The notes beneath the pieces are model-generated. The model was not told the origin of the DNA, ran no database searches, and saw only the letters and a list, made by a program, of their open reading frames with translations. Shown here one piece after another: positions 14,476 to 62,393 of a DNA stretch of 64,000 nt; position 1 is the stretch's first letter; each line of letters opens with the position of its first letter. The DNA is taken from the NCBI RefSeq assembly GCF_013315695.1, contig NZ_CP054353.1; one strand, written 5' to 3'. Source of the stretch: Escherichia coli. GTDB taxonomy: Bacteria > Pseudomonadota > Gammaproteobacteria > Enterobacterales > Enterobacteriaceae. Position numbers and translations under genes: made by a program.

Positions 14476-14549
14476 TACTCCATCCTTAGATTATACTAAA
14501 TTTTGTATAAATCAAATGCGCAGTTTGAACCTGCGCATTTGATGTTTTA

Positions 14550-16574: not shown

Positions 16575-16613
16575 CAGTGTATTGGTAGCTAAAAAGCCAG
16601 GGGCGGTAGCGTG
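16575..16613 (+). promoter_or_regulatory. JUMPstart element with ops site (GGCGGTAGCGTG) in the colanic acid operon leader; RfaH-dependent antitermination signal
   Basis: CAGTGTATTGGTAGCTAAAAAGCCAGGGGCGGTAGCGTG about 180 bp upstream of wza; nearly identical to a second copy upstream of rmlB. Confidence 0.75.
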
Positions 16614-21515: not shown

Positions 21516-22004
21516 ATGCTGGAAGATCTGCGCGCCAACAGCTGGAGTTTACGCCCGTGCTGCATGGTTCTTGCCTATCGCGCCGCTCATTTTTGTTCGG
21601 TGTGGCGCAAAAAGAACGTCCTCAACAATCTGTGGGCGGCCCCGCTGCTGGTGCTGTATCGCATTATCACCGAATGCTTTTTCGGTTATGAAATCCAGGC
21701 CGCCGCGACCATAGGCCGACGCTTTACTATCCATCACGGTTACGCCGTGGTGATCAATAAAAACGTGGTCGCGGGGGATGATTTCACCATTCGTCACGGC
21801 GTCACTATCGGCAATCGTGGTGCCGATAACATGGCATGTCCACACATTGGCAATGGCGTCGAACTCGGTGCCAACGTCATTATTCTTGGTGATATCACGC
21901 TTGGTAACAACGTCACCGTGGGCGCGGGCAGCGTGGTGCTCGACTCTGTCCCGGACAACGCGCTGGTGGTGGGAGAAAAAGCGCGAGTGAAGGTAATTAA
22001 ATGA
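21516..22004 (+). CDS. wcaB: Colanic acid biosynthesis acetyltransferase WcaB (hexapeptide repeat)
   Basis: 162-aa ORF, hexapeptide-repeat acyltransferase; synteny. Confidence 0.93.
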   Translation: MLEDLRANSWSLRPCCMVLAYRAAHFCSVWRKKNVLNNLWAAPLLVLYRIITECFFGYEIQAAATIGRRFTIHHGYAVVINKNVVAGDDFTIRHGVTIGNRGADNMACPHIGNGVELGANVIILGDITLGNNVTVGAGSVVLDSVPDNALVVGEKARVKVIK

Positions 22005-23218
22005 ATATTCTGCAATTTAATGTGCGACTGGCGGAAGGCGGGGCAGCAGGTGTGGCGTTAGATCTCCACCAGCGTGCGCTGCAACAGGGGCTGGCATCAC
22101 ATTTTGTCTACGGCTACGGCAAAGGCGGCAAAGAGAGCGTCAGTCATCAAAACTATCCGCAGGTCATCAAACATACGCCGCGGATGACCGCGATGGCGAA
22201 CATTGCGTTGTTTCGTCTGTTTAATCGCGATCTGTTCGGCAATTTCAATGAGTTATATCGCACCATTACTCGCACACCGGGTCCGGTGGTCCTGCATTTT
22301 CATGTGCTGCACAGCTACTGGTTGAATCTTAAGAGCGTGGTGCGCTTTTGCGAAAAAGTGAAAAACCATAAACCGGATGTCACTCTGGTCTGGACACTGC
22401 ACGACCACTGGAGCGTTACCGGACGCTGCGCCTTTACCGACGGTTGCGAAGGCTGGAAAACGGGCTGCCAGAAATGCCCGACCTTAAATAATTATCCGCC
22501 GGTGAAGATTGATCGCGCACACCAACTGGTGGCGGGCAAACGGCAGTTATTCCGCGAGATGCTGGCACTGGGCTGTCAGTTTATTTCCCCCAGCCAGCAT
22601 GTGGCAGACGCTTTCAATAGTCTGTACGGTCCAGGGCGTTGCCGGATTATCAATAACGGTATTGATATGGCAACCGAAGCGATTCTGGCGGACTTGCCTC
22701 TGGTGCGCGAAACCCAGAACAAGCCGAAAATCGCGGTGGTGGCGCATGATCTGCGTTACGACGGCAAAACTAACCAGCAACTGGTACGCGAGATGATGGC
22801 GCTGGGCGACAAAATCGAACTGCATACCTTTGGTAAGTTCTCGCCGTTCACCGCTGGCAACGTGGTTAATCACGGCTTTGAAACTGACAAGCGCAAGTTG
22901 ATGAGCGCGCTCAATCAGATGGATGCGCTGGTATTCAGTTCTCGCGTCGATAACTACCCGCTGATTTTGTGTGAGGCGCTATCGATTGGCGTGCCGGTGA
23001 TTGCCACCCATAGCGACGCGGCGCGTGAAGTGTTGCAAAAATCCGGCGGTAAAACCGTCAGCGAAGAAGATGTGCTGCAACTGGTGCAGTTAAGCAAACC
23101 GGAAATCGCACAGGCGATATTTGGTACCACGCTGGCTGAGTTCAGCCAGCGCAGCCGCGCCGCCTACAGTGGACAACAGATGCTGGAGGAGTATGTCAAC
23201 TTCTATCAGAATCTGTAG
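22001..23218 (+). CDS. wcaC: Colanic acid biosynthesis glycosyltransferase WcaC (GT4)
   Basis: 405-aa ORF; synteny. Confidence 0.93.
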   Translation: MNILQFNVRLAEGGAAGVALDLHQRALQQGLASHFVYGYGKGGKESVSHQNYPQVIKHTPRMTAMANIALFRLFNRDLFGNFNELYRTITRTPGPVVLHFHVLHSYWLNLKSVVRFCEKVKNHKPDVTLVWTLHDHWSVTGRCAFTDGCEGWKTGCQKCPTLNNYPPVKIDRAHQLVAGKRQLFREMLALGCQFISPSQHVADAFNSLYGPGRCRIINNGIDMATEAILADLPLVRETQNKPKIAVVAHDLRYDGKTNQQLVREMMALGDKIELHTFGKFSPFTAGNVVNHGFETDKRKLMSALNQMDALVFSSRVDNYPLILCEALSIGVPVIATHSDAAREVLQKSGGKTVSEEDVLQLVQLSKPEIAQAIFGTTLAEFSQRSRAAYSGQQMLEEYVNFYQNL

Positions 23219-31061: not shown

Positions 31062-31162
31062 CAGTTGCATAATCAACCGGATTAATTCTTCGGTAAATAA
31101 CGACAAAAACAAAATTGGCCGTTTCGGTCAGGGCCAACTATTGCCTGAAAAAGGGTAAAGAC

Positions 31163-32533
31163 ATGAAAAAATTAACCTGCTTTAAAGCCTATGATATTCG
31201 CGGGAAATTAGGCGAAGAACTGAATGAAGATATTGCCTGGCGCATTGGTCGCGCCTATGGCGAATTTCTCAAACCGAAAACCATTGTGTTAGGCGGTGAT
31301 GTCCGCCTCACCAGCGAAACCTTAAAACTGGCGCTGGCGAAAGGTTTACAGGATGCGGGCGTCGATGTGCTGGATATTGGCATGTCCGGCACCGAAGAGA
31401 TCTATTTCGCCACGTTCCATCTCGGCGTGGATGGCGGCATCGAAGTTACCGCCAGCCATAACCCGATGGATTACAACGGCATGAAGCTGGTGCGCGAAGG
31501 GGCTCGCCCGATCAGCGGCGATACCGGACTGCGCGACGTCCAGCGTCTGGCAGAAGCCAACGACTTTCCTCCCGTTGATGAAACCAAACGCGGTCGCTAT
31601 CAGCAAATCAACCTGCGTGATGCATACGTTGATCACCTGTTCGGTTATATCAATGTCAAAAACCTTACGCCGCTCAAGCTGGTGATCAACTCCGGGAACG
31701 GCGCAGCGGGTCCGGTGGTGGACGCCATCGAAGCCCGTTTTAAAGCCCTCGGCGCACCGGTGGAGTTAATCAAAGTGCATAACACGCCGGACGGCAATTT
31801 CCCCAACGGTATTCCTAACCCGTTGCTGCCGGAATGCCGCGACGACACCCGTAATGCGGTCATCAAACACGGCGCGGATATGGGCATTGCCTTTGATGGC
31901 GATTTTGACCGCTGTTTCCTGTTTGACGAAAAAGGGCAGTTTATTGAGGGCTACTACATTGTCGGCCTGCTGGCAGAAGCATTCCTCGAAAAAAATCCCG
32001 GCGCGAAGATCATCCACGATCCACGTCTCTCCTGGAACACCGTTGATGTGGTGACTGCCGCAGGCGGCACCCCGGTAATGTCGAAAACCGGACACGCCTT
32101 TATTAAAGAACGTATGCGCAAGGAAGACGCTATCTACGGTGGCGAAATGAGCGCCCACCATTACTTCCGTGATTTCGCTTACTGCGACAGCGGCATGATC
32201 CCGTGGCTGCTGGTCGCCGAACTGGTGTGCCTGAAAGGAAAAACGCTGGGCGAACTGGTGCGCGACCGGATGGCGGCGTTTCCGGCAAGCGGTGAGATCA
32301 ACAGCAAACTGGCGCAACCCGTTGAGGCGATTAACCGCGTGGAACAGCATTTTAGCCGTGAGGCGCTGGCGGTGGATCGCACCGATGGCATCAGCATGAC
32401 CTTTGCCGACTGGCGCTTTAACCTGCGCTCCTCCAACACCGAACCGGTGGTGCGGTTGAATGTGGAATCGCGCGGTGATGTGCCGCTGATGGAAGCGCGA
32501 ACGCGAACTCTGCTGACGTTGCTGAACGAGTAA
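31163..32533 (+). CDS. cpsG: Phosphomannomutase
   Basis: ORF track starts at 31115; trimmed to ATG 31163 ([17 protein letters not shown]...), 456 aa, phosphohexomutase motif TASHNP. Confidence 0.95.
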
Positions 32534-32587
32534 TGTCGGATCTTCCCTTACCCCACTGCGGGTAAGGGGCTAATAACAGGAACAACG

Positions 32588-33982
32588 ATGACAAATCTAA
32601 AAAAGCGCGAGCGAGCGAAAACCAATGCATCGTTAATCTCTATGGTGCAACGCTTTTCAGATATCACCATCATGTTTGCCGGGCTATGGCTGGTTTGCGA
32701 AGTGAGCGGACTGTCATTCCTCTACATGCACCTGTTGGTGGCGCTGATTACGCTGGTGGTGTTCCAGATGCTGGGCGGCATCACCGATTTTTATCGCTCA
32801 TGGCGCGGTGTTCGGGCAGCGACAGAATTTGCCCTGCTGCTACAAAACTGGACCTTAAGCGTGATTTTCAGCGCCGGACTGGTGGCGTTCAACAATGATT
32901 TCGACACGCAACTGAAAATCTGGCTGGCGTGGTATGGGCTGACCAGTATCGGACTGGTGGTTTGCCGTTCATGTATTCGCATTGGGGCGGGCTGGCTGCG
33001 TAATCATGGCTATAACAAGCGCATGGTCGCCGTAGCGGGGGATTTAGCCGCCGGACAAATGCTGATGGAGAGCTTCCGTAATCAGCCGTGGTTAGGGTTT
33101 GAAGTGGTGGGCGTATACCACGACCCAAAACCGGGCGGCGTTTCTAACGACTGGGCGGGCAATCTGCAACAACTGGTCGAGGATGCGAAAGCGGGCAAGA
33201 TTCATAACGTCTATATCGCGATGCAGATGTGCGACGGCGCGCGAGTGAAAAAACTGGTCCATCAACTGGCGGACACCACCTGTTCGGTGCTGCTGATCCC
33301 CGATGTCTTTACCTTCAACATTCTCCATTCACGCCTCGAAGAGATGAATGGCGTACCGGTGGTGCCGCTGTATGACACGCCGCTTTCCGGGGTTAACCGC
33401 CTGCTCAAACGTGCGGAAGACATTGTGCTGGCGACGCTTATCCTGCTGCTGATCTCCCCGGTGCTGTGCTGCATTGCGCTGGCGGTGAAACTGAGCTCAC
33501 CGGGGCCGGTTATTTTCCGCCAGACTCGCTACGGCATGGATGGCAAACCGATCAAAGTGTGGAAGTTCCGATCCATGAAAGTGATGGAGAACGACAAAGT
33601 GGTGACTCAGGCGACGCAGAACGATCCGCGCGTCACCAAAGTGGGGAACTTTCTGCGCCGCACCTCGCTGGACGAATTGCCGCAGTTTATCAATGTGCTG
33701 ACTGGCGGGATGTCGATTGTCGGTCCACGTCCGCACGCGGTGGCGCATAACGAACAGTATCGACAGCTCATTGAAGGCTACATGCTGCGCCATAAGGTGA
33801 AACCGGGCATTACCGGCTGGGCGCAGATTAATGGCTGGCGTGGCGAAACCGACACGCTGGAGAAAATGGAAAAACGCGTCGAGTTCGACCTTGAGTACAT
33901 CCGCGAATGGAGCGTCTGGTTCGATATCAAAATCGTTTTCCTGACGGTATTCAAGGGCTTCGTTAACAAAGCGGCATATTGA
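32588..33982 (+). CDS. wcaJ: UDP-glucose:undecaprenyl-phosphate glucose-1-phosphate transferase (colanic acid initiating enzyme)
   Basis: 464-aa ORF, polyprenyl glycosylphosphotransferase family; synteny. Confidence 0.93.
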   Translation: MTNLKKRERAKTNASLISMVQRFSDITIMFAGLWLVCEVSGLSFLYMHLLVALITLVVFQMLGGITDFYRSWRGVRAATEFALLLQNWTLSVIFSAGLVAFNNDFDTQLKIWLAWYGLTSIGLVVCRSCIRIGAGWLRNHGYNKRMVAVAGDLAAGQMLMESFRNQPWLGFEVVGVYHDPKPGGVSNDWAGNLQQLVEDAKAGKIHNVYIAMQMCDGARVKKLVHQLADTTCSVLLIPDVFTFNILHSRLEEMNGVPVVPLYDTPLSGVNRLLKRAEDIVLATLILLLISPVLCCIALAVKLSSPGPVIFRQTRYGMDGKPIKVWKFRSMKVMENDKVVTQATQNDPRVTKVGNFLRRTSLDELPQFINVLTGGMSIVGPRPHAVAHNEQYRQLIEGYMLRHKVKPGITGWAQINGWRGETDTLEKMEKRVEFDLEYIREWSVWFDIKIVFLTVFKGFVNKAAY

Positions 33983-35462: not shown

Positions 35463-35474
35463 ATGGCTATCCCC

Positions 35475-35545
35475 GTAAGGTCGTGCGCATTTTCCCCCTC
35501 ACCCTAACCCTCTCCCCAGGGGGCGAGGGGACTGATCGAGCACAG
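35475..35545. repeat. REP-like interspersed element carrying the CCCTCACCCTAACCCTCTCCCC motif
   Basis: Sequence ...CCCCCTCACCCTAACCCTCTCCCCAGGGGGCGAGGGGACTG...; a related motif (CTCCCTAACCCTCACTCC) occurs in the sib repeat units at about 600-650 and 940-975. Confidence 0.4.
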
Positions 35546-35623
35546 CTTTGAATATGTCACCGGTTTAACTCTTAATCATCAACCATAGCACCGACGCAAT
35601 TTAGAACTCCTTTTGAGGTCATA

Positions 35624-40851: not shown

Positions 40852-40891
40852 GCAGTGCTCTGGTAGCTGTAAAGCCAGGGGCGGTAGCGTG
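40852..40891 (+). promoter_or_regulatory. JUMPstart element with ops site (GGCGGTAGCGTG) in the O-antigen operon leader
   Basis: GCAGTGCTCTGGTAGCTGTAAAGCCAGGGGCGGTAGCGTG about 75 bp upstream of rmlB. Confidence 0.8.
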
Positions 40892-49952: not shown

Positions 49953-51017
49953 ATGAAAAAAATTGCTATTATCGGTACTGTTGGCATACCAGCATCATAT
50001 GGCGGATTTGAAACATTAGTTGAAAATTTAACAAGATACAATTCCTCGGGAGTTGAATATAATGTTTTTTGTTCATCGTTTCACTACAAATCCCACCAAA
50101 AAAAACATAATGGGGCCCGTTTAATTTATATTCCGCTTAAAGCCAATGGATGGCAGAGCATTGCGTATGACATAATTTCGTTAGCATATTCTATTTTTTT
50201 GAAGCCTGATGTGATTCTGATTTTAGGGGTTTCTGGTTGTTCATTTTTGCCTTTCTTCAAACTCTTAACACGCGCTAAGTTTATTACTAATATTGATGGC
50301 CTGGAATGGCGAAGAGATAAATGGAATTCAAAAGTGAAACGTTTCTTAAAATTTTCAGAAAAAATCGCAGTTCAATATTCGGATGTCGTTATTACGGATA
50401 ATGAGGCAATTTCTGAGTACGTTTTTAACGAGTATAATAAAGATAGCCGAGTTATTGCCTATGGAGGGGATCATGCATGGTTAAATACTGAGGATGTATT
50501 TACAACAAGAAATTATAAAAGCGATTACTACCTTTCTGTATGTCGTATCGAACCCGAAAACAATGTAGAATTAATTTTAAAAACATTTTCAAAGCTAAAA
50601 TATAAAATAAAATTTATTGGAAATTGGAATGGCAGCGAGTTTGGAAAGAAACTTAGGCTGCATTATTCTAACTATCCAAATATTGAAATGATTGATCCGA
50701 TTTATGATCTTCAACAATTATTTCACTTACGAAATAATTGCATAGGATATATACATGGTCATTCGGCTGGAGGAACAAACCCTTCTTTAGTCGAGGCAAT
50801 GCATTTTAGTAAACCTATATTTGCATATGATTGTAAGTTTAATAGGTACACTACTGAAAATGAAGCATGTTATTTTTCTAATGAATCTGACCTCGCAGAG
50901 AAAATCATAATGCATTGTGAGCTATCATTAGGTGTCTCTGGCACGAAAATGAAAGAAATTGCTAACCAGAAATACACTTGGAGACGAATAGCAGAAATGT
51001 ATGAGGATTGCTATTAA
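49953..51017 (+). CDS. Family 1 (GT4-type) glycosyltransferase
   Basis: 354-aa ORF MKKIAIIGTVGIPASYGGFETLVENL..., typical of O-antigen GT1 enzymes. Confidence 0.8.
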   Translation: MKKIAIIGTVGIPASYGGFETLVENLTRYNSSGVEYNVFCSSFHYKSHQKKHNGARLIYIPLKANGWQSIAYDIISLAYSIFLKPDVILILGVSGCSFLPFFKLLTRAKFITNIDGLEWRRDKWNSKVKRFLKFSEKIAVQYSDVVITDNEAISEYVFNEYNKDSRVIAYGGDHAWLNTEDVFTTRNYKSDYYLSVCRIEPENNVELILKTFSKLKYKIKFIGNWNGSEFGKKLRLHYSNYPNIEMIDPIYDLQQLFHLRNNCIGYIHGHSAGGTNPSLVEAMHFSKPIFAYDCKFNRYTTENEACYFSNESDLAEKIIMHCELSLGVSGTKMKEIANQKYTWRRIAEMYEDCY

Positions 51018-62197: not shown

Positions 62198-62244
62198 TTT
62201 CTTATTCCTCTTTAAACCTGTCTGAACCGTTATCAACCGCGCAA

Positions 62245-62280
62245 TAAAAAAGCCCCCGGAAGGTGATCTTCCGGGGGCTT
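62245..62280 (-). terminator. his operon attenuator terminator (leader region)
   Basis: On the minus strand: GCCCCCGGAAGATCACCTTCCGGGGGC hairpin followed by TTTTTT, between hisL and hisG. Confidence 0.8.
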
Positions 62281-62342
62281 TCTCATGCGTTCATGCACCA
62301 CTGGAAGATCTGAATGTCTTCCAGCACACATCGCCTGAAAGA

Positions 62343-62393
62343 CTAGTCAGGATGATGGTGATGATGGTGGTGTTTAAATTGAACGCGTGTCAT
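62343..62393 (-). CDS. hisL: his operon leader peptide (MTRVQFKHHHHHHHPD)
   Basis: Minus-strand ATG at 62393; 16 codons including seven consecutive His codons, then TAG. Confidence 0.9.
   Translation of the reverse strand: MTRVQFKHHHHHHHPD

What the first reader, a model, noticed from the sequence alone, without database searches (positions are those of the whole stretch)
32534..32587. Stable hairpin inside the cps operon between cpsG and wcaJ
CCTTACCC-CACTGC-GGGTAAGG forms an 8-bp GC-rich stem directly after the cpsG stop, with no following U-tract. It is unlikely to be a full terminator. It could be an RNase-protective 3' structure that sets differential stability between the GDP-fucose pathway genes upstream and the downstream transferase/flippase genes.
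Basis: inference. Interest (0 to 1): 0.2.

Follow-up and report, generated by a model that had tools for sequence, protein, structure and literature searches.

The report
Conserved BoxC-derived hairpin between cpsG and wcaJ
The small GC-rich hairpin between two colanic-acid genes of E. coli is real and has been kept for a very long time, looks like the stripped-down remnant of a known repeated palindrome (BoxC), does not look like a terminator, and most likely just shields the upstream part of the messenger RNA from degradation, so it is a modestly interesting but essentially ordinary operon-internal structure.

Summary
The hairpin is real. It spans window 32544-32569: 9 Watson-Crick pairs (CCCTTACCC/GGGTAAGGG) plus a closing U.G, loop CACTGC, about -17 kcal/mol. 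It starts 10 nt after the cpsG stop, ends 18 nt before the wcaJ ATG, and has no U-tract.

It is not a chance palindrome. In 75 of 76 Enterobacteriaceae wca loci this junction holds a strong stem-loop. E. coli alleles vary only in the loop and flanks. Citrobacter and Salmonella orthologues show compensatory pair changes. The sense strand usually folds better than the antisense.

Its likely origin is the BoxC (PIT/TMECO) repeat family. About 11% of E. coli genomes and many other genera carry a full BoxC, or an inverted BoxC pair, at the same spot. The window's stem matches the two outer BoxC blocks.

The mechanism is inferred, not shown. It is not an intrinsic terminator. It is most likely a barrier to 3'-to-5' exonucleases that defines or stabilises 3' ends of the upstream segment. 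Support comes from published Term-seq 3' ends 4-12 nt after BoxC hairpins at four K-12 loci. A published microarray shows only a 0.33 log2 drop from cpsG to wcaJ, so any effect on expression is probably small.

Interest is low to moderate.

The parts
32531..32533 (+). cpsG stop codon (TAA)
   Evidence: Sequence. RefSeq cpsG annotation mapped to the window.
32534..32543 (+). 10-nt spacer between the stop codon and the hairpin (TGTCGGATCT)
   Evidence: This stretch varies among E. coli alleles. Across 75 loci the structure starts a median of 10 nt after the stop, and within 15 nt in 63 of 75.
32544..32553 (+). 5' arm of the hairpin: U32544 (pairs with G32569) plus CCCTTACCC. Corresponds to the outer, antisense BoxC block CCCTCACCC.
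   Evidence: Fold. Comparison with the long E. coli allele and other genera.
32554..32559 (+). Hairpin loop CACTGC
   Evidence: The loop is hypervariable within E. coli (CATTGC, CTCTGC, CCACTGC) and between genera, while the stem stays paired.
32560..32569 (+). 3' arm of the hairpin: GGGTAAGGG plus G32569. Corresponds to the outer, sense BoxC block GGGTGAGGG.
32570..32587 (+). Single-stranded spacer holding the wcaJ ribosome-binding site (AGGA at 32578-32581, 6 nt before the ATG)
   Evidence: The block AACAGGAAC(A/C)ACG-ATG is nearly invariant among Escherichia, Citrobacter and Salmonella. The structure's 3' end lies mostly 18-23 nt before the ATG across genera.
32588..32590 (+). wcaJ start codon (ATG)

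Best explanation
The feature is a conserved stem-loop in the sense-strand RNA of the polycistronic wca (colanic acid) transcript. It sits in the 54-nt spacer between cpsG and wcaJ.

In evolutionary terms it is the minimal remnant of an inverted pair of BoxC (PIT/TMECO) palindromic repeats. Only the two outermost blocks remain (CCCTCACCC...GGGTGAGGG), and they now carry a compensatory C-G to U-A change. The inner blocks, still present in other strains and genera, are gone.

It does not terminate transcription: RNA polymerase reads through into wcaJ. The most likely role is a barrier to 3'-to-5' exonucleases (PNPase, RNase II). Decay that starts from downstream endonucleolytic cuts, or from premature Rho-dependent termination in wcaJ-wcaM, would stop a few nucleotides 3' of the stem. 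That would leave the upstream wza-cpsG segment with a defined, protected 3' end.

Shown here: the structure, its conservation, its covariation and its BoxC relationship. Inferred by analogy: the exonuclease-barrier role. Any resulting difference in steady-state expression is probably small.
For: **Structure**
- 10-pair stem, -17.1 kcal/mol, z = -3.2.

**Conservation**
- Of 76 cpsG-wcaJ spacers (75 recovered from the 80 loci fetched from other Enterobacteriaceae, plus the window), 75 hold an uninterrupted helix of at least 6 bp, and only one lacks one (Citrobacter sp. MGH106). Spacer folding energies range from -10 to -180 kcal/mol.

**Selection on pairing**
- The sampled E. coli alleles, taken at even steps down the ranking of all 4129 short-form genomes, vary only in the loop and flanks, never in the 18 stem bases.
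- In Escherichia, Citrobacter and Salmonella the loop is essentially randomised, yet the stem stays paired. Double-sided changes are seen at A-U to G-C, C-G to U-A (with U.G intermediates) and U-A to C-G.
- 97.6% of cells are paired, against 45-66% when the partner is slid. 0 of 500 shuffles reach the observed covariation score.

**RNA level, sense strand**
- The sense strand folds more stably than the antisense in 51 of 74 distinct spacers, against 20 the other way (Wilcoxon p = 3e-4). Wobble pairs are mostly U.G on the sense strand.

**BoxC origin**
- 509 E. coli genomes carry a 133-nt allele here, and its core is a multi-copy repeat with a median of 15 places per genome.
- That core fits the published BoxC/TMECO consensus CCCTCNCCC-N3-6-GGGNGAGGG-N3-GGGNGAGGG with 2 substitutions.
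- 27 of 76 spacers match the consensus at up to 3 substitutions, and 18 of them match in both orientations.
- Holder et al. describe the same 'palindrome effect': deletion of part of both inverted copies leaves a stable stem-loop.

**Mechanism by analogy**
- Stem-loops without U-tracts protect Rho-dependent transcripts from PNPase and RNase II.
- Term-seq 3' ends in K-12 lie 4-12 nt after BoxC 9-bp hairpins at 164636(+), 624567(-), 3781065(+) (the 'primary' end of lldD) and 3959467(-).
- My rough chance expectation for such coincidences is about 0.17 events.

**Not a terminator**
- No U-tract and no hit in the terminator scan.
- BoxC/PIT elements are reported to lack terminator and promoter activity.
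Against: - No 3' end or processing site has been mapped at this junction. Adams et al. list none for K-12 at 2121555-2121608, but the operon is not expressed in LB or M63, so this says little.
- In MG1655 induced with colicin M, the log2 ratios fall smoothly along the operon: cpsB 5.10, cpsG 5.15, wcaJ 4.82, wzxC 4.45. The step at the hairpin is only 0.33, so a strong differential-stability effect is not visible. The caveat is that these are array ratios, not absolute coverage.
- Complementarity in palindromes can also be kept up by template-switch (quasi-palindrome) mutation without selection on RNA.
- The sequences in the covariation test are related, so the shuffle control overstates significance.
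- Palindromic repeats tend to accumulate in any tolerated spacer. The wzxC-wcaK spacer of the same operon holds a BoxC in this strain and REP units in K-12.
Confidence: 0.4

Rival explanations
1. Neutral relic. The hairpin is just what remains of a selfish or recombinogenic BoxC palindrome pair in a spacer where insertions are tolerated because they fold back on themselves. Complementarity is kept up by palindrome-specific mutation (template switching) rather than by function.
For: - BoxC loci are hypervariable, and partial deletions that leave stem-loops are documented.
- The junction is dimorphic in E. coli, with 4129 short and 509 long alleles.
- Another spacer in the same operon holds a BoxC in this strain and REP units in K-12.
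- One lineage (Citrobacter sp. MGH106) has lost the hairpin.
- The microarray shows no clear expression step.
Against: - The loop bases are randomised between genera while 9 stem pairs persist, with several independent compensatory changes.
- A stem-loop is present in 75 of 76 loci across more than 20 genera. Some lineages have unrelated palindromes in its place, such as the REP-like one in Cedecea and others in Siccibacter, Franconibacter and Mangrovibacter.
- The sense-strand bias of G.U pairs points to the RNA level.
Confidence: 0.25
2. Translation-level element. The stable hairpin lies 10 nt after the stop codon, and only 5-7 nt after it in many genera. That may be close enough to hinder the terminating ribosome and lower CpsG output through stalling and trans-translation, as reported for REP sequences within 15 nt of stop codons (Liang, Rudd & Deutscher 2015, recalled from memory). 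Alternatively, it may insulate or assist independent initiation at wcaJ, whose Shine-Dalgarno sequence lies a fixed 8-10 nt downstream of the stem.
For: - The structure starts within 15 nt of the stop in 63 of 75 loci (median 10).
- Its 3' end sits mostly 18-23 nt before the ATG, whatever the spacer length (39-357 nt).
- The G-rich arm is Shine-Dalgarno-like (UAAGGGG, GGAGG) in all forms.
Against: - No direct data exist.
- The fixed spacing is also expected if the ribosome-binding-site block is simply conserved and the palindrome abuts it.
- In 12 of 75 loci the structure starts more than 15 nt from the stop.
- The supporting paper could not be retrieved here.
Confidence: 0.15
3. 5'-end protector or processing signal. 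RNase E cuts in the A/U-rich spacer just after the stop codon. The hairpin then sits at the new 5' end of the wcaJ-wcaM RNA and slows its 5'-end-dependent decay.
For: - The spacer between stop and stem is short and often A/U-rich (UAUUUA, UCAUUG, CGUUUA) in many genera.
- 5'-terminal stem-loops are known stabilisers (the ompA paradigm, from general knowledge).
Against: - No mapped 5' ends.
- In E. coli the spacer is UGUCGGAUCU, not strongly A/U-rich.
- Downstream genes show lower, not higher, induction ratios.
Confidence: 0.08
4. Partial transcription attenuator or pause site, analogous to the stem-loop after wzc in group 1 capsule clusters that RfaH helps polymerase read through (recalled from memory: Rahn & Whitfield 2003).
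For: - The operon carries a JUMPstart/ops element upstream of wza.
- Induction ratios decline gradually along the operon.
Against: - No U-tract, and no hit in the terminator scan.
- BoxC/PIT elements showed no terminator activity.
- The cpsG-to-wcaJ step is only 0.33 log2, no larger than elsewhere in the operon.
Confidence: 0.05
5. DNA-level element (cruciform, intrastrand triplex or protein-binding site), as proposed for BoxC/PIT motifs.
For: BoxC oligonucleotides form intrastrand triplexes in vitro, and BoxC loci are recombination-prone or variable.
Against: - The window's form has only two blocks and cannot form the three-block intrastrand triplex. All 36 spacers of 70 nt or less lack a full BoxC match, and 35 of them still hold a helix of at least 6 bp.
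- Triplex formation was not supported in vivo.
- The sense-strand G.U bias favours RNA.
Confidence: 0.05

Closest known systems
BoxC / PIT / TMECO repeats of E. coli (Bergler 1992; Bachellier 1999; Hoyne & Maher 2000; Holder et al. 2015)
   Same: - The same block sequences (CCCTCNCCC / GGGNGAGGG).
- Strictly intergenic.
- The same junction holds bona fide BoxC copies or inverted pairs in 11% of E. coli genomes and in many genera.
- The 'palindrome effect', in which partial deletion leaves a stable stem-loop, is already described for BoxC pairs.
   Different: - The window's form has two blocks, not three.
- Each block departs from the consensus by one base, and the two departures are compensatory.
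- It is single-copy in the genome.
- It cannot form the proposed intrastrand triplex.
REP/BIME intercistronic mRNA stabilisers (malE-malF paradigm; Newbury et al. 1987, from general knowledge)
   Same: - A GC-rich stem-loop without a U-tract, in an intercistronic spacer.
- It lies between genes for abundant soluble enzymes upstream and membrane proteins downstream.
- The proposed action is a 3' exonuclease barrier.
- REP units occupy the neighbouring wzxC-wcaK spacer in K-12.
   Different: - The sequence is unrelated to the REP consensus (GCCGGATGCGGCG...).
- No experimental half-life data exist here.
- The visible expression step is small.
Protective 3' stem-loops of Rho-dependent transcripts (Dar & Sorek 2018)
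   Same: An energetically stable stem-loop not followed by U-rich sequence. BoxC hairpins of the same size coincide with Term-seq 3' ends in K-12.
   Different: Those structures sit at the ends of transcription units. This one is inside an operon, 18 nt upstream of the next start codon, and must be read through for wcaJ-wcaM to be expressed.
Intrinsic (Rho-independent) terminators
   Same: A GC-rich hairpin of 9-10 bp with a short loop.
   Different: No U-tract follows it, and it is not detected by the terminator scan.

Membership tests
BoxC / PIT / TMECO repeat | Three-block motif CCCTCNCCC-N3-6-GGGNGAGGG-N3-GGGNGAGGG | tested here: not met
   A regex with up to 4 substitutions finds no match at 32534-32587. 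The only match in the window is at 35496-35529 on the minus strand. The hairpin has two blocks, CCCTTACCC and GGGTAAGGG.
BoxC / PIT / TMECO repeat | Multi-copy, dispersed in the genome (23 in MG1655) | tested here: not met
   The 54-nt spacer is single-copy (median 1 place per genome, 4129 genomes). By contrast, the core of the long allele has a median of 15 places per genome.
BoxC / PIT / TMECO repeat | Intergenic location | tested here: met
   It lies between the cpsG stop and the wcaJ start.
BoxC / PIT / TMECO repeat | Descent from a BoxC copy (orthologous position occupied by consensus BoxC elsewhere) | tested here: met
   - The long E. coli allele carries a BoxC (2 substitutions from the consensus).
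- 27 of 76 orthologous spacers match the consensus at up to 3 substitutions, 18 of them in both orientations.
- The window's arms align with the outer blocks.
- Descent is inferred from this pattern, not proven.
Intrinsic terminator | GC-rich stem-loop | tested here: met
Intrinsic terminator | U-tract (at least 5 U in 8) directly after the stem | tested here: not met
   The downstream sequence is CUAAUAACAGG. No site is reported at this position.
REP / BIME | REP consensus sequence (GCCGGATGCGGCG...CGCCTTATCCGGCCTAC) | tested here: not met
   The spacer sequence bears no resemblance to it. True REP-like units, seen in the K-12 wzxC-wcaK spacer, look different.
Protective 3' stem-loop / mRNA decay barrier (functional class) | Stable stem-loop without a U-tract on the transcribed strand | tested here: met
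Protective 3' stem-loop / mRNA decay barrier (functional class) | Steady-state RNA 3' ends immediately downstream of the stem, sensitive to PNPase or RNase II | not testable with these tools
   No 3' ends are listed for this junction in Adams et al. 2021, because the operon is not expressed in those conditions. Related BoxC hairpins do show such ends.
Any Rfam family | Match at the gathering threshold | tested here: not met
   The window scan gives no hit at 32534-32587. Long-form orthologues give only spurious sub-threshold microRNA-type hits.

The most novel reading that the evidence does not exclude
BoxC elements have had no assigned function since the early 1990s. They may be selected as sense-strand RNA hairpins that define or protect RNA 3' ends (or otherwise punctuate operon transcripts), not as DNA triplexes. 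The cpsG-wcaJ junction would be the clearest case. A stem-loop has been kept at one orthologous site across more than 20 genera, while its form switches between inverted BoxC pair, fused palindrome, inner-block hairpin and outer-block hairpin. This shows that the hairpin is the constrained feature, not the triplex-forming third block.
Probability: 0.3. Interest if true: 0.5.

Novelty: new member of a known kind. Interest (0 to 1): 0.3.

Why it matters
If the hairpin really acts as a decay barrier, it is one more example of operon-internal RNA punctuation. Here it would separate the nucleotide-sugar enzymes from the membrane-bound assembly and export proteins of colanic acid synthesis.

The wider value is as a test bed for BoxC repeats, whose role has been unknown for three decades. 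This one orthologous site offers natural 'minimal' and 'full' alleles: 4129 versus 509 E. coli genomes, plus many genera. It also shows covariation. Allele swaps and compensatory mutants could therefore test directly whether the RNA hairpin, rather than a DNA triplex, is what matters. The practical effect on colanic acid expression is likely modest.

Tried and rejected
- **Rfam.** No family covers the hairpin. Long-form orthologues gave only spurious sub-threshold microRNA-like hits.
- **Terminator and promoter scan.** Nothing at the junction.
- **Recalled BoxC location.** I looked for a BoxC downstream of fabI (envM) from memory. That region holds only an ordinary terminator. The BoxC is upstream of fabI, at 1351205-1351239.
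- **Literature searches.** Searches for 'box C' together with BIME, IRU, RSA or Bergler found nothing. 'boxC' led to Holder et al. 2015.
- **Papers not held.** Stevenson et al. 1996 (the colanic acid cluster paper) is not in the library. Liang, Rudd & Deutscher 2015 was not found, so it is cited from memory only.
- **Term-seq tables.** Adams et al. 2021 list no 3' end at cpsG-wcaJ or wzxC-wcaK in K-12. This is uninformative because the operon is silent in LB and M63.
- **Supplements not held.** None are held for Dar & Sorek 2018 or for the 3'-UTR valve paper.
- **Alignment problem.** MAFFT misplaced gaps in two Citrobacter rows, so I re-derived the pair register by hand in a script.
- **RNase III site, rejected as the conserved mechanism.** A 10-bp stem is too short, although the long alleles could be substrates.
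- **Antisense-strand terminator, rejected.** No T-run follows the stem on the minus strand.

Full report
**1. The observation**

The window is 100% identical over the 301-nt query around the junction to E. coli ATCC 11775 (NZ_CP033092.2). RefSeq annotates cpsG (window 31163-32533) and wcaJ (32588-33982) in the colanic-acid (wca) operon. The 54-nt spacer reads TAA-TGTCGGATCT-U-CCCUUACCC-CACUGC-GGGUAAGGG-G-CUAAUAACAGGAACAACG-AUG.

RNAfold gives a 10-pair stem, U32544.G32569 plus nine Watson-Crick pairs, with a 6-nt loop. The energy is -17.1 kcal/mol, and z = -3.2 for the hairpin region.

No U-tract follows, and the terminator scan finds nothing here. Rfam has no family at this position.

As a bare sequence feature it is only mildly unusual. 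Five distinct perfect hairpin sites of at least 9 bp occur in the window (nine overlapping hits by the script's count), against a mean of 2.0 hits per dinucleotide shuffle.

**2. Population and comparative evidence**

*Within E. coli*
- Among 5426 complete E. coli genomes, 4129 carry this short spacer as a single-copy sequence.
- 509 carry a 133-nt allele at the same junction.
- Together these make 4638 genomes, essentially all of the 4639 that cover at least 80% of the junction query.
- Alleles sampled at even steps down the ranking of all short-form genomes differ only in the loop (CATTGC, CTCTGC, CCACTGC) or in the flanks. None differs in the 18 stem bases.

*Across Enterobacteriaceae*
- One genome-collection scan with WcaJ returned 80 loci from more than 20 genera. 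I extracted 75 cpsG-wcaJ spacers from them and added the window's own.
- 75 of the 76 hold an uninterrupted helix of at least 6 bp. Spacer folding energies run from -10 to -180 kcal/mol.
- The structure starts a median of 10 nt after the stop, and within 15 nt in 63 of 75.
- It ends mostly 18-23 nt before the ATG, although spacer length ranges from 39 to 357 nt.
- Only Citrobacter sp. MGH106 has lost it.

**3. Covariation**

In the Escherichia, Citrobacter and Salmonella group, loop sequences are unrelated between species. The nine stem pairs persist with compensatory changes:
- A-U to G-C at pair 6 (8 versus 8 sequences);
- C-G to U-A at pair 3, with U.G intermediates;
- U-A to C-G at pair 5.

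On the MAFFT alignment, 97.6% of cells are paired, against 45-66% when partners are slid by 1-3 columns. Two pairs show double-sided changes (13 cells). 0 of 500 shuffles reach the observed covariation score. The sequences are related, so this is supportive rather than conclusive.

The mRNA-sense strand folds more stably than the antisense in 51 of 74 distinct spacers, against 20 the other way (Wilcoxon p = 3e-4). Wobble pairs are mostly U.G in the sense orientation. This points to an RNA-level structure on the transcribed strand.

**4. What it is derived from**

The long E. coli allele reads CCCCTCACCC...CTCCCCCTCGCCCCTTTGGGAGAGGGCCGGGGTGAGGGG. Its core is a dispersed repeat with a median of 15 places per genome.

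Holder et al. 2015 (PMC4666352) give the consensus of the BoxC / PIT / 'TMECO' element as CCCTCNCCC-N3-6-GGGNGAGGG-N3-GGGNGAGGG. They report:
- 23 copies in MG1655, always intergenic and often as inverted pairs;
- no promoter or terminator activity;
- hypervariable loci;
- a 'palindrome effect', in which part of both inverted copies is lost so that a stable stem-loop remains.

The long allele fits this consensus with 2 substitutions, and it also holds a decayed inverted copy.

Across genera the junction holds:
- an inverted BoxC pair or a fused palindrome (Enterobacter, Kluyvera, Buttiauxella, Lelliottia, Pseudenterobacter and others);
- a short inner-block hairpin, CCCCTCTCCC/GGGGAGGGG (Leclercia, Lelliottia, Silvania, Kosakonia, Yokenella, E. 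mori, E. soli);
- the short outer-block hairpin, CCCTTACCC/GGGTAAGGG and covarying variants (Escherichia, Citrobacter, Salmonella);
- in a few lineages, unrelated palindromes, including a REP-like one in Cedecea.

The window's hairpin therefore fails the formal BoxC tests: it has two blocks and is single-copy. It is best read as a relic of a BoxC pair. Because the two-block forms cannot make the proposed intrastrand triplex, the hairpin is the constrained feature at this site, not the triplex.

**5. Mechanism**

An intrinsic terminator is unlikely, for three reasons:
- there is no U-tract;
- BoxC/PIT elements lack terminator activity;
- a published microarray of MG1655, which has the identical spacer, shows a smooth decline along the operon 60 min after colicin M treatment. 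The log2 ratios are wza 7.12 ... wcaI 5.92, cpsB 5.10, cpsG 5.15, wcaJ 4.82, wzxC 4.45, wcaK 4.45, wcaL 3.63, wcaM 2.71, so the step across the hairpin is only -0.33.

The same data argue against a large differential-stability effect.

Two results favour a role as a 3'-exonuclease barrier.
- In the curated Term-seq table of Adams et al. 2021, 3' ends lie 4-12 nt after BoxC 9-bp hairpins at four of the 18 MG1655 BoxC loci: 164636(+), 624567(-), 3781065(+) (the primary 3' end of lldD) and 3959467(-). I checked the register of the listed sequences on sgrS and the coordinate system on the fabI-upstream BoxC.
- With about 2900 table rows and 46 strand-specific 12-nt windows, I expect about 0.17 such coincidences by chance. 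This is my own rough estimate.

No 3' end is listed at the cpsG-wcaJ junction. The operon is silent in those growth conditions, so the absence is uninformative.

My best explanation is a read-through, sense-strand stem-loop that stops 3'-to-5' decay and so protects the upstream wza-cpsG segment, with a modest quantitative effect. Confidence is about 0.4.

The rivals, in order, are:
- a neutral palindromic relic kept up by mutation bias (0.25);
- a translation-level role of a stop-proximal hairpin (0.15);
- a 5'-protective or processing role (0.08);
- a transcription attenuator (0.05);
- a DNA-level role (0.05).

**6. Novelty and verdict**

The structure class is known: REP-like and BoxC-like operon-internal stem-loops, and protective 3' stem-loops. 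The 'palindrome effect' has also been described. What is new here is:
- the identification of this particular hairpin as a BoxC relic;
- its dimorphism in E. coli;
- its deep, covarying conservation at one orthologous site.

I rate it a new member of a known kind, with interest about 0.3.

Noticed in passing
window 35496-35529 (minus-strand orientation), in the wzxC-wcaK spacer 35463-35623: An exact match to the BoxC/TMECO consensus sits in the next long intercistronic spacer of the same operon. Only 274 of 5426 E. coli genomes share this spacer form. K-12 MG1655 has a 275-nt spacer with four REP-like units there instead. Several Buttiauxella loci (L068-L070, L073) also have a BoxC right after wzxC.
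   Followed up: partly
window 31109-31158 (+): The Rfam algC RNA motif (RF02929; 78 bits against a gathering score of 33.8) lies 5 nt upstream of the annotated cpsG start. cpsG is therefore bracketed by a candidate cis-regulatory RNA upstream and the hairpin downstream.
   Followed up: no
window 16575-16613 (+) and 40853-40891 (+): Two JUMPstart (ops-containing) elements. One lies upstream of wza at the head of the wca operon. The other lies upstream of the O-antigen genes after galF.
   Followed up: no
window 532-674 (-), 861-1009 (-), 62244-62367 (-): Two SIB antitoxin RNAs and the histidine operon leader were detected by Rfam. The His leader terminator is the 9-bp perfect hairpin at 62252-62278.
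   Followed up: no
E. coli K-12 NC_000913.3 position 624680 (-), not in the window: A very strong Term-seq 3' end (read counts 103563 and 243213) lies 4 nt upstream of BoxC #8 in the fepB 5' UTR. It is on the 5' side of the element, which an exonuclease barrier does not explain.
   Followed up: no
L054:1144-1500 (Enterobacteriaceae bacterium UBA5654) and L028:1254-1500 (Enterobacteriaceae bacterium RIT714): These cpsG-wcaJ spacers are expanded to 357 and 247 nt. The expansion comes from tandem copies of BoxC-related units: about three copies of a unit of roughly 75 nt in L054, and repeated GGGAGATCGCCCGGAGCGG...CCCTCGCCCC units in L028.
   Followed up: no
L078 (CACSKA010000001.1): This record is titled 'Chryseobacterium sp. 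18061' but carries an Enterobacteriaceae-type wcaJ locus (81% identity) with an inner-block hairpin. It is probably a contaminated or mislabelled assembly.
   Followed up: no
window 14514-14540, 23130-23151, 50715-50740: Other perfect hairpins of at least 9 bp in the window. 23130-23151 (CGCTGGCTG-AGTT-CAGCCAGCG) lies inside coding sequence, near the end of the ORF 22001-23218.
   Followed up: no
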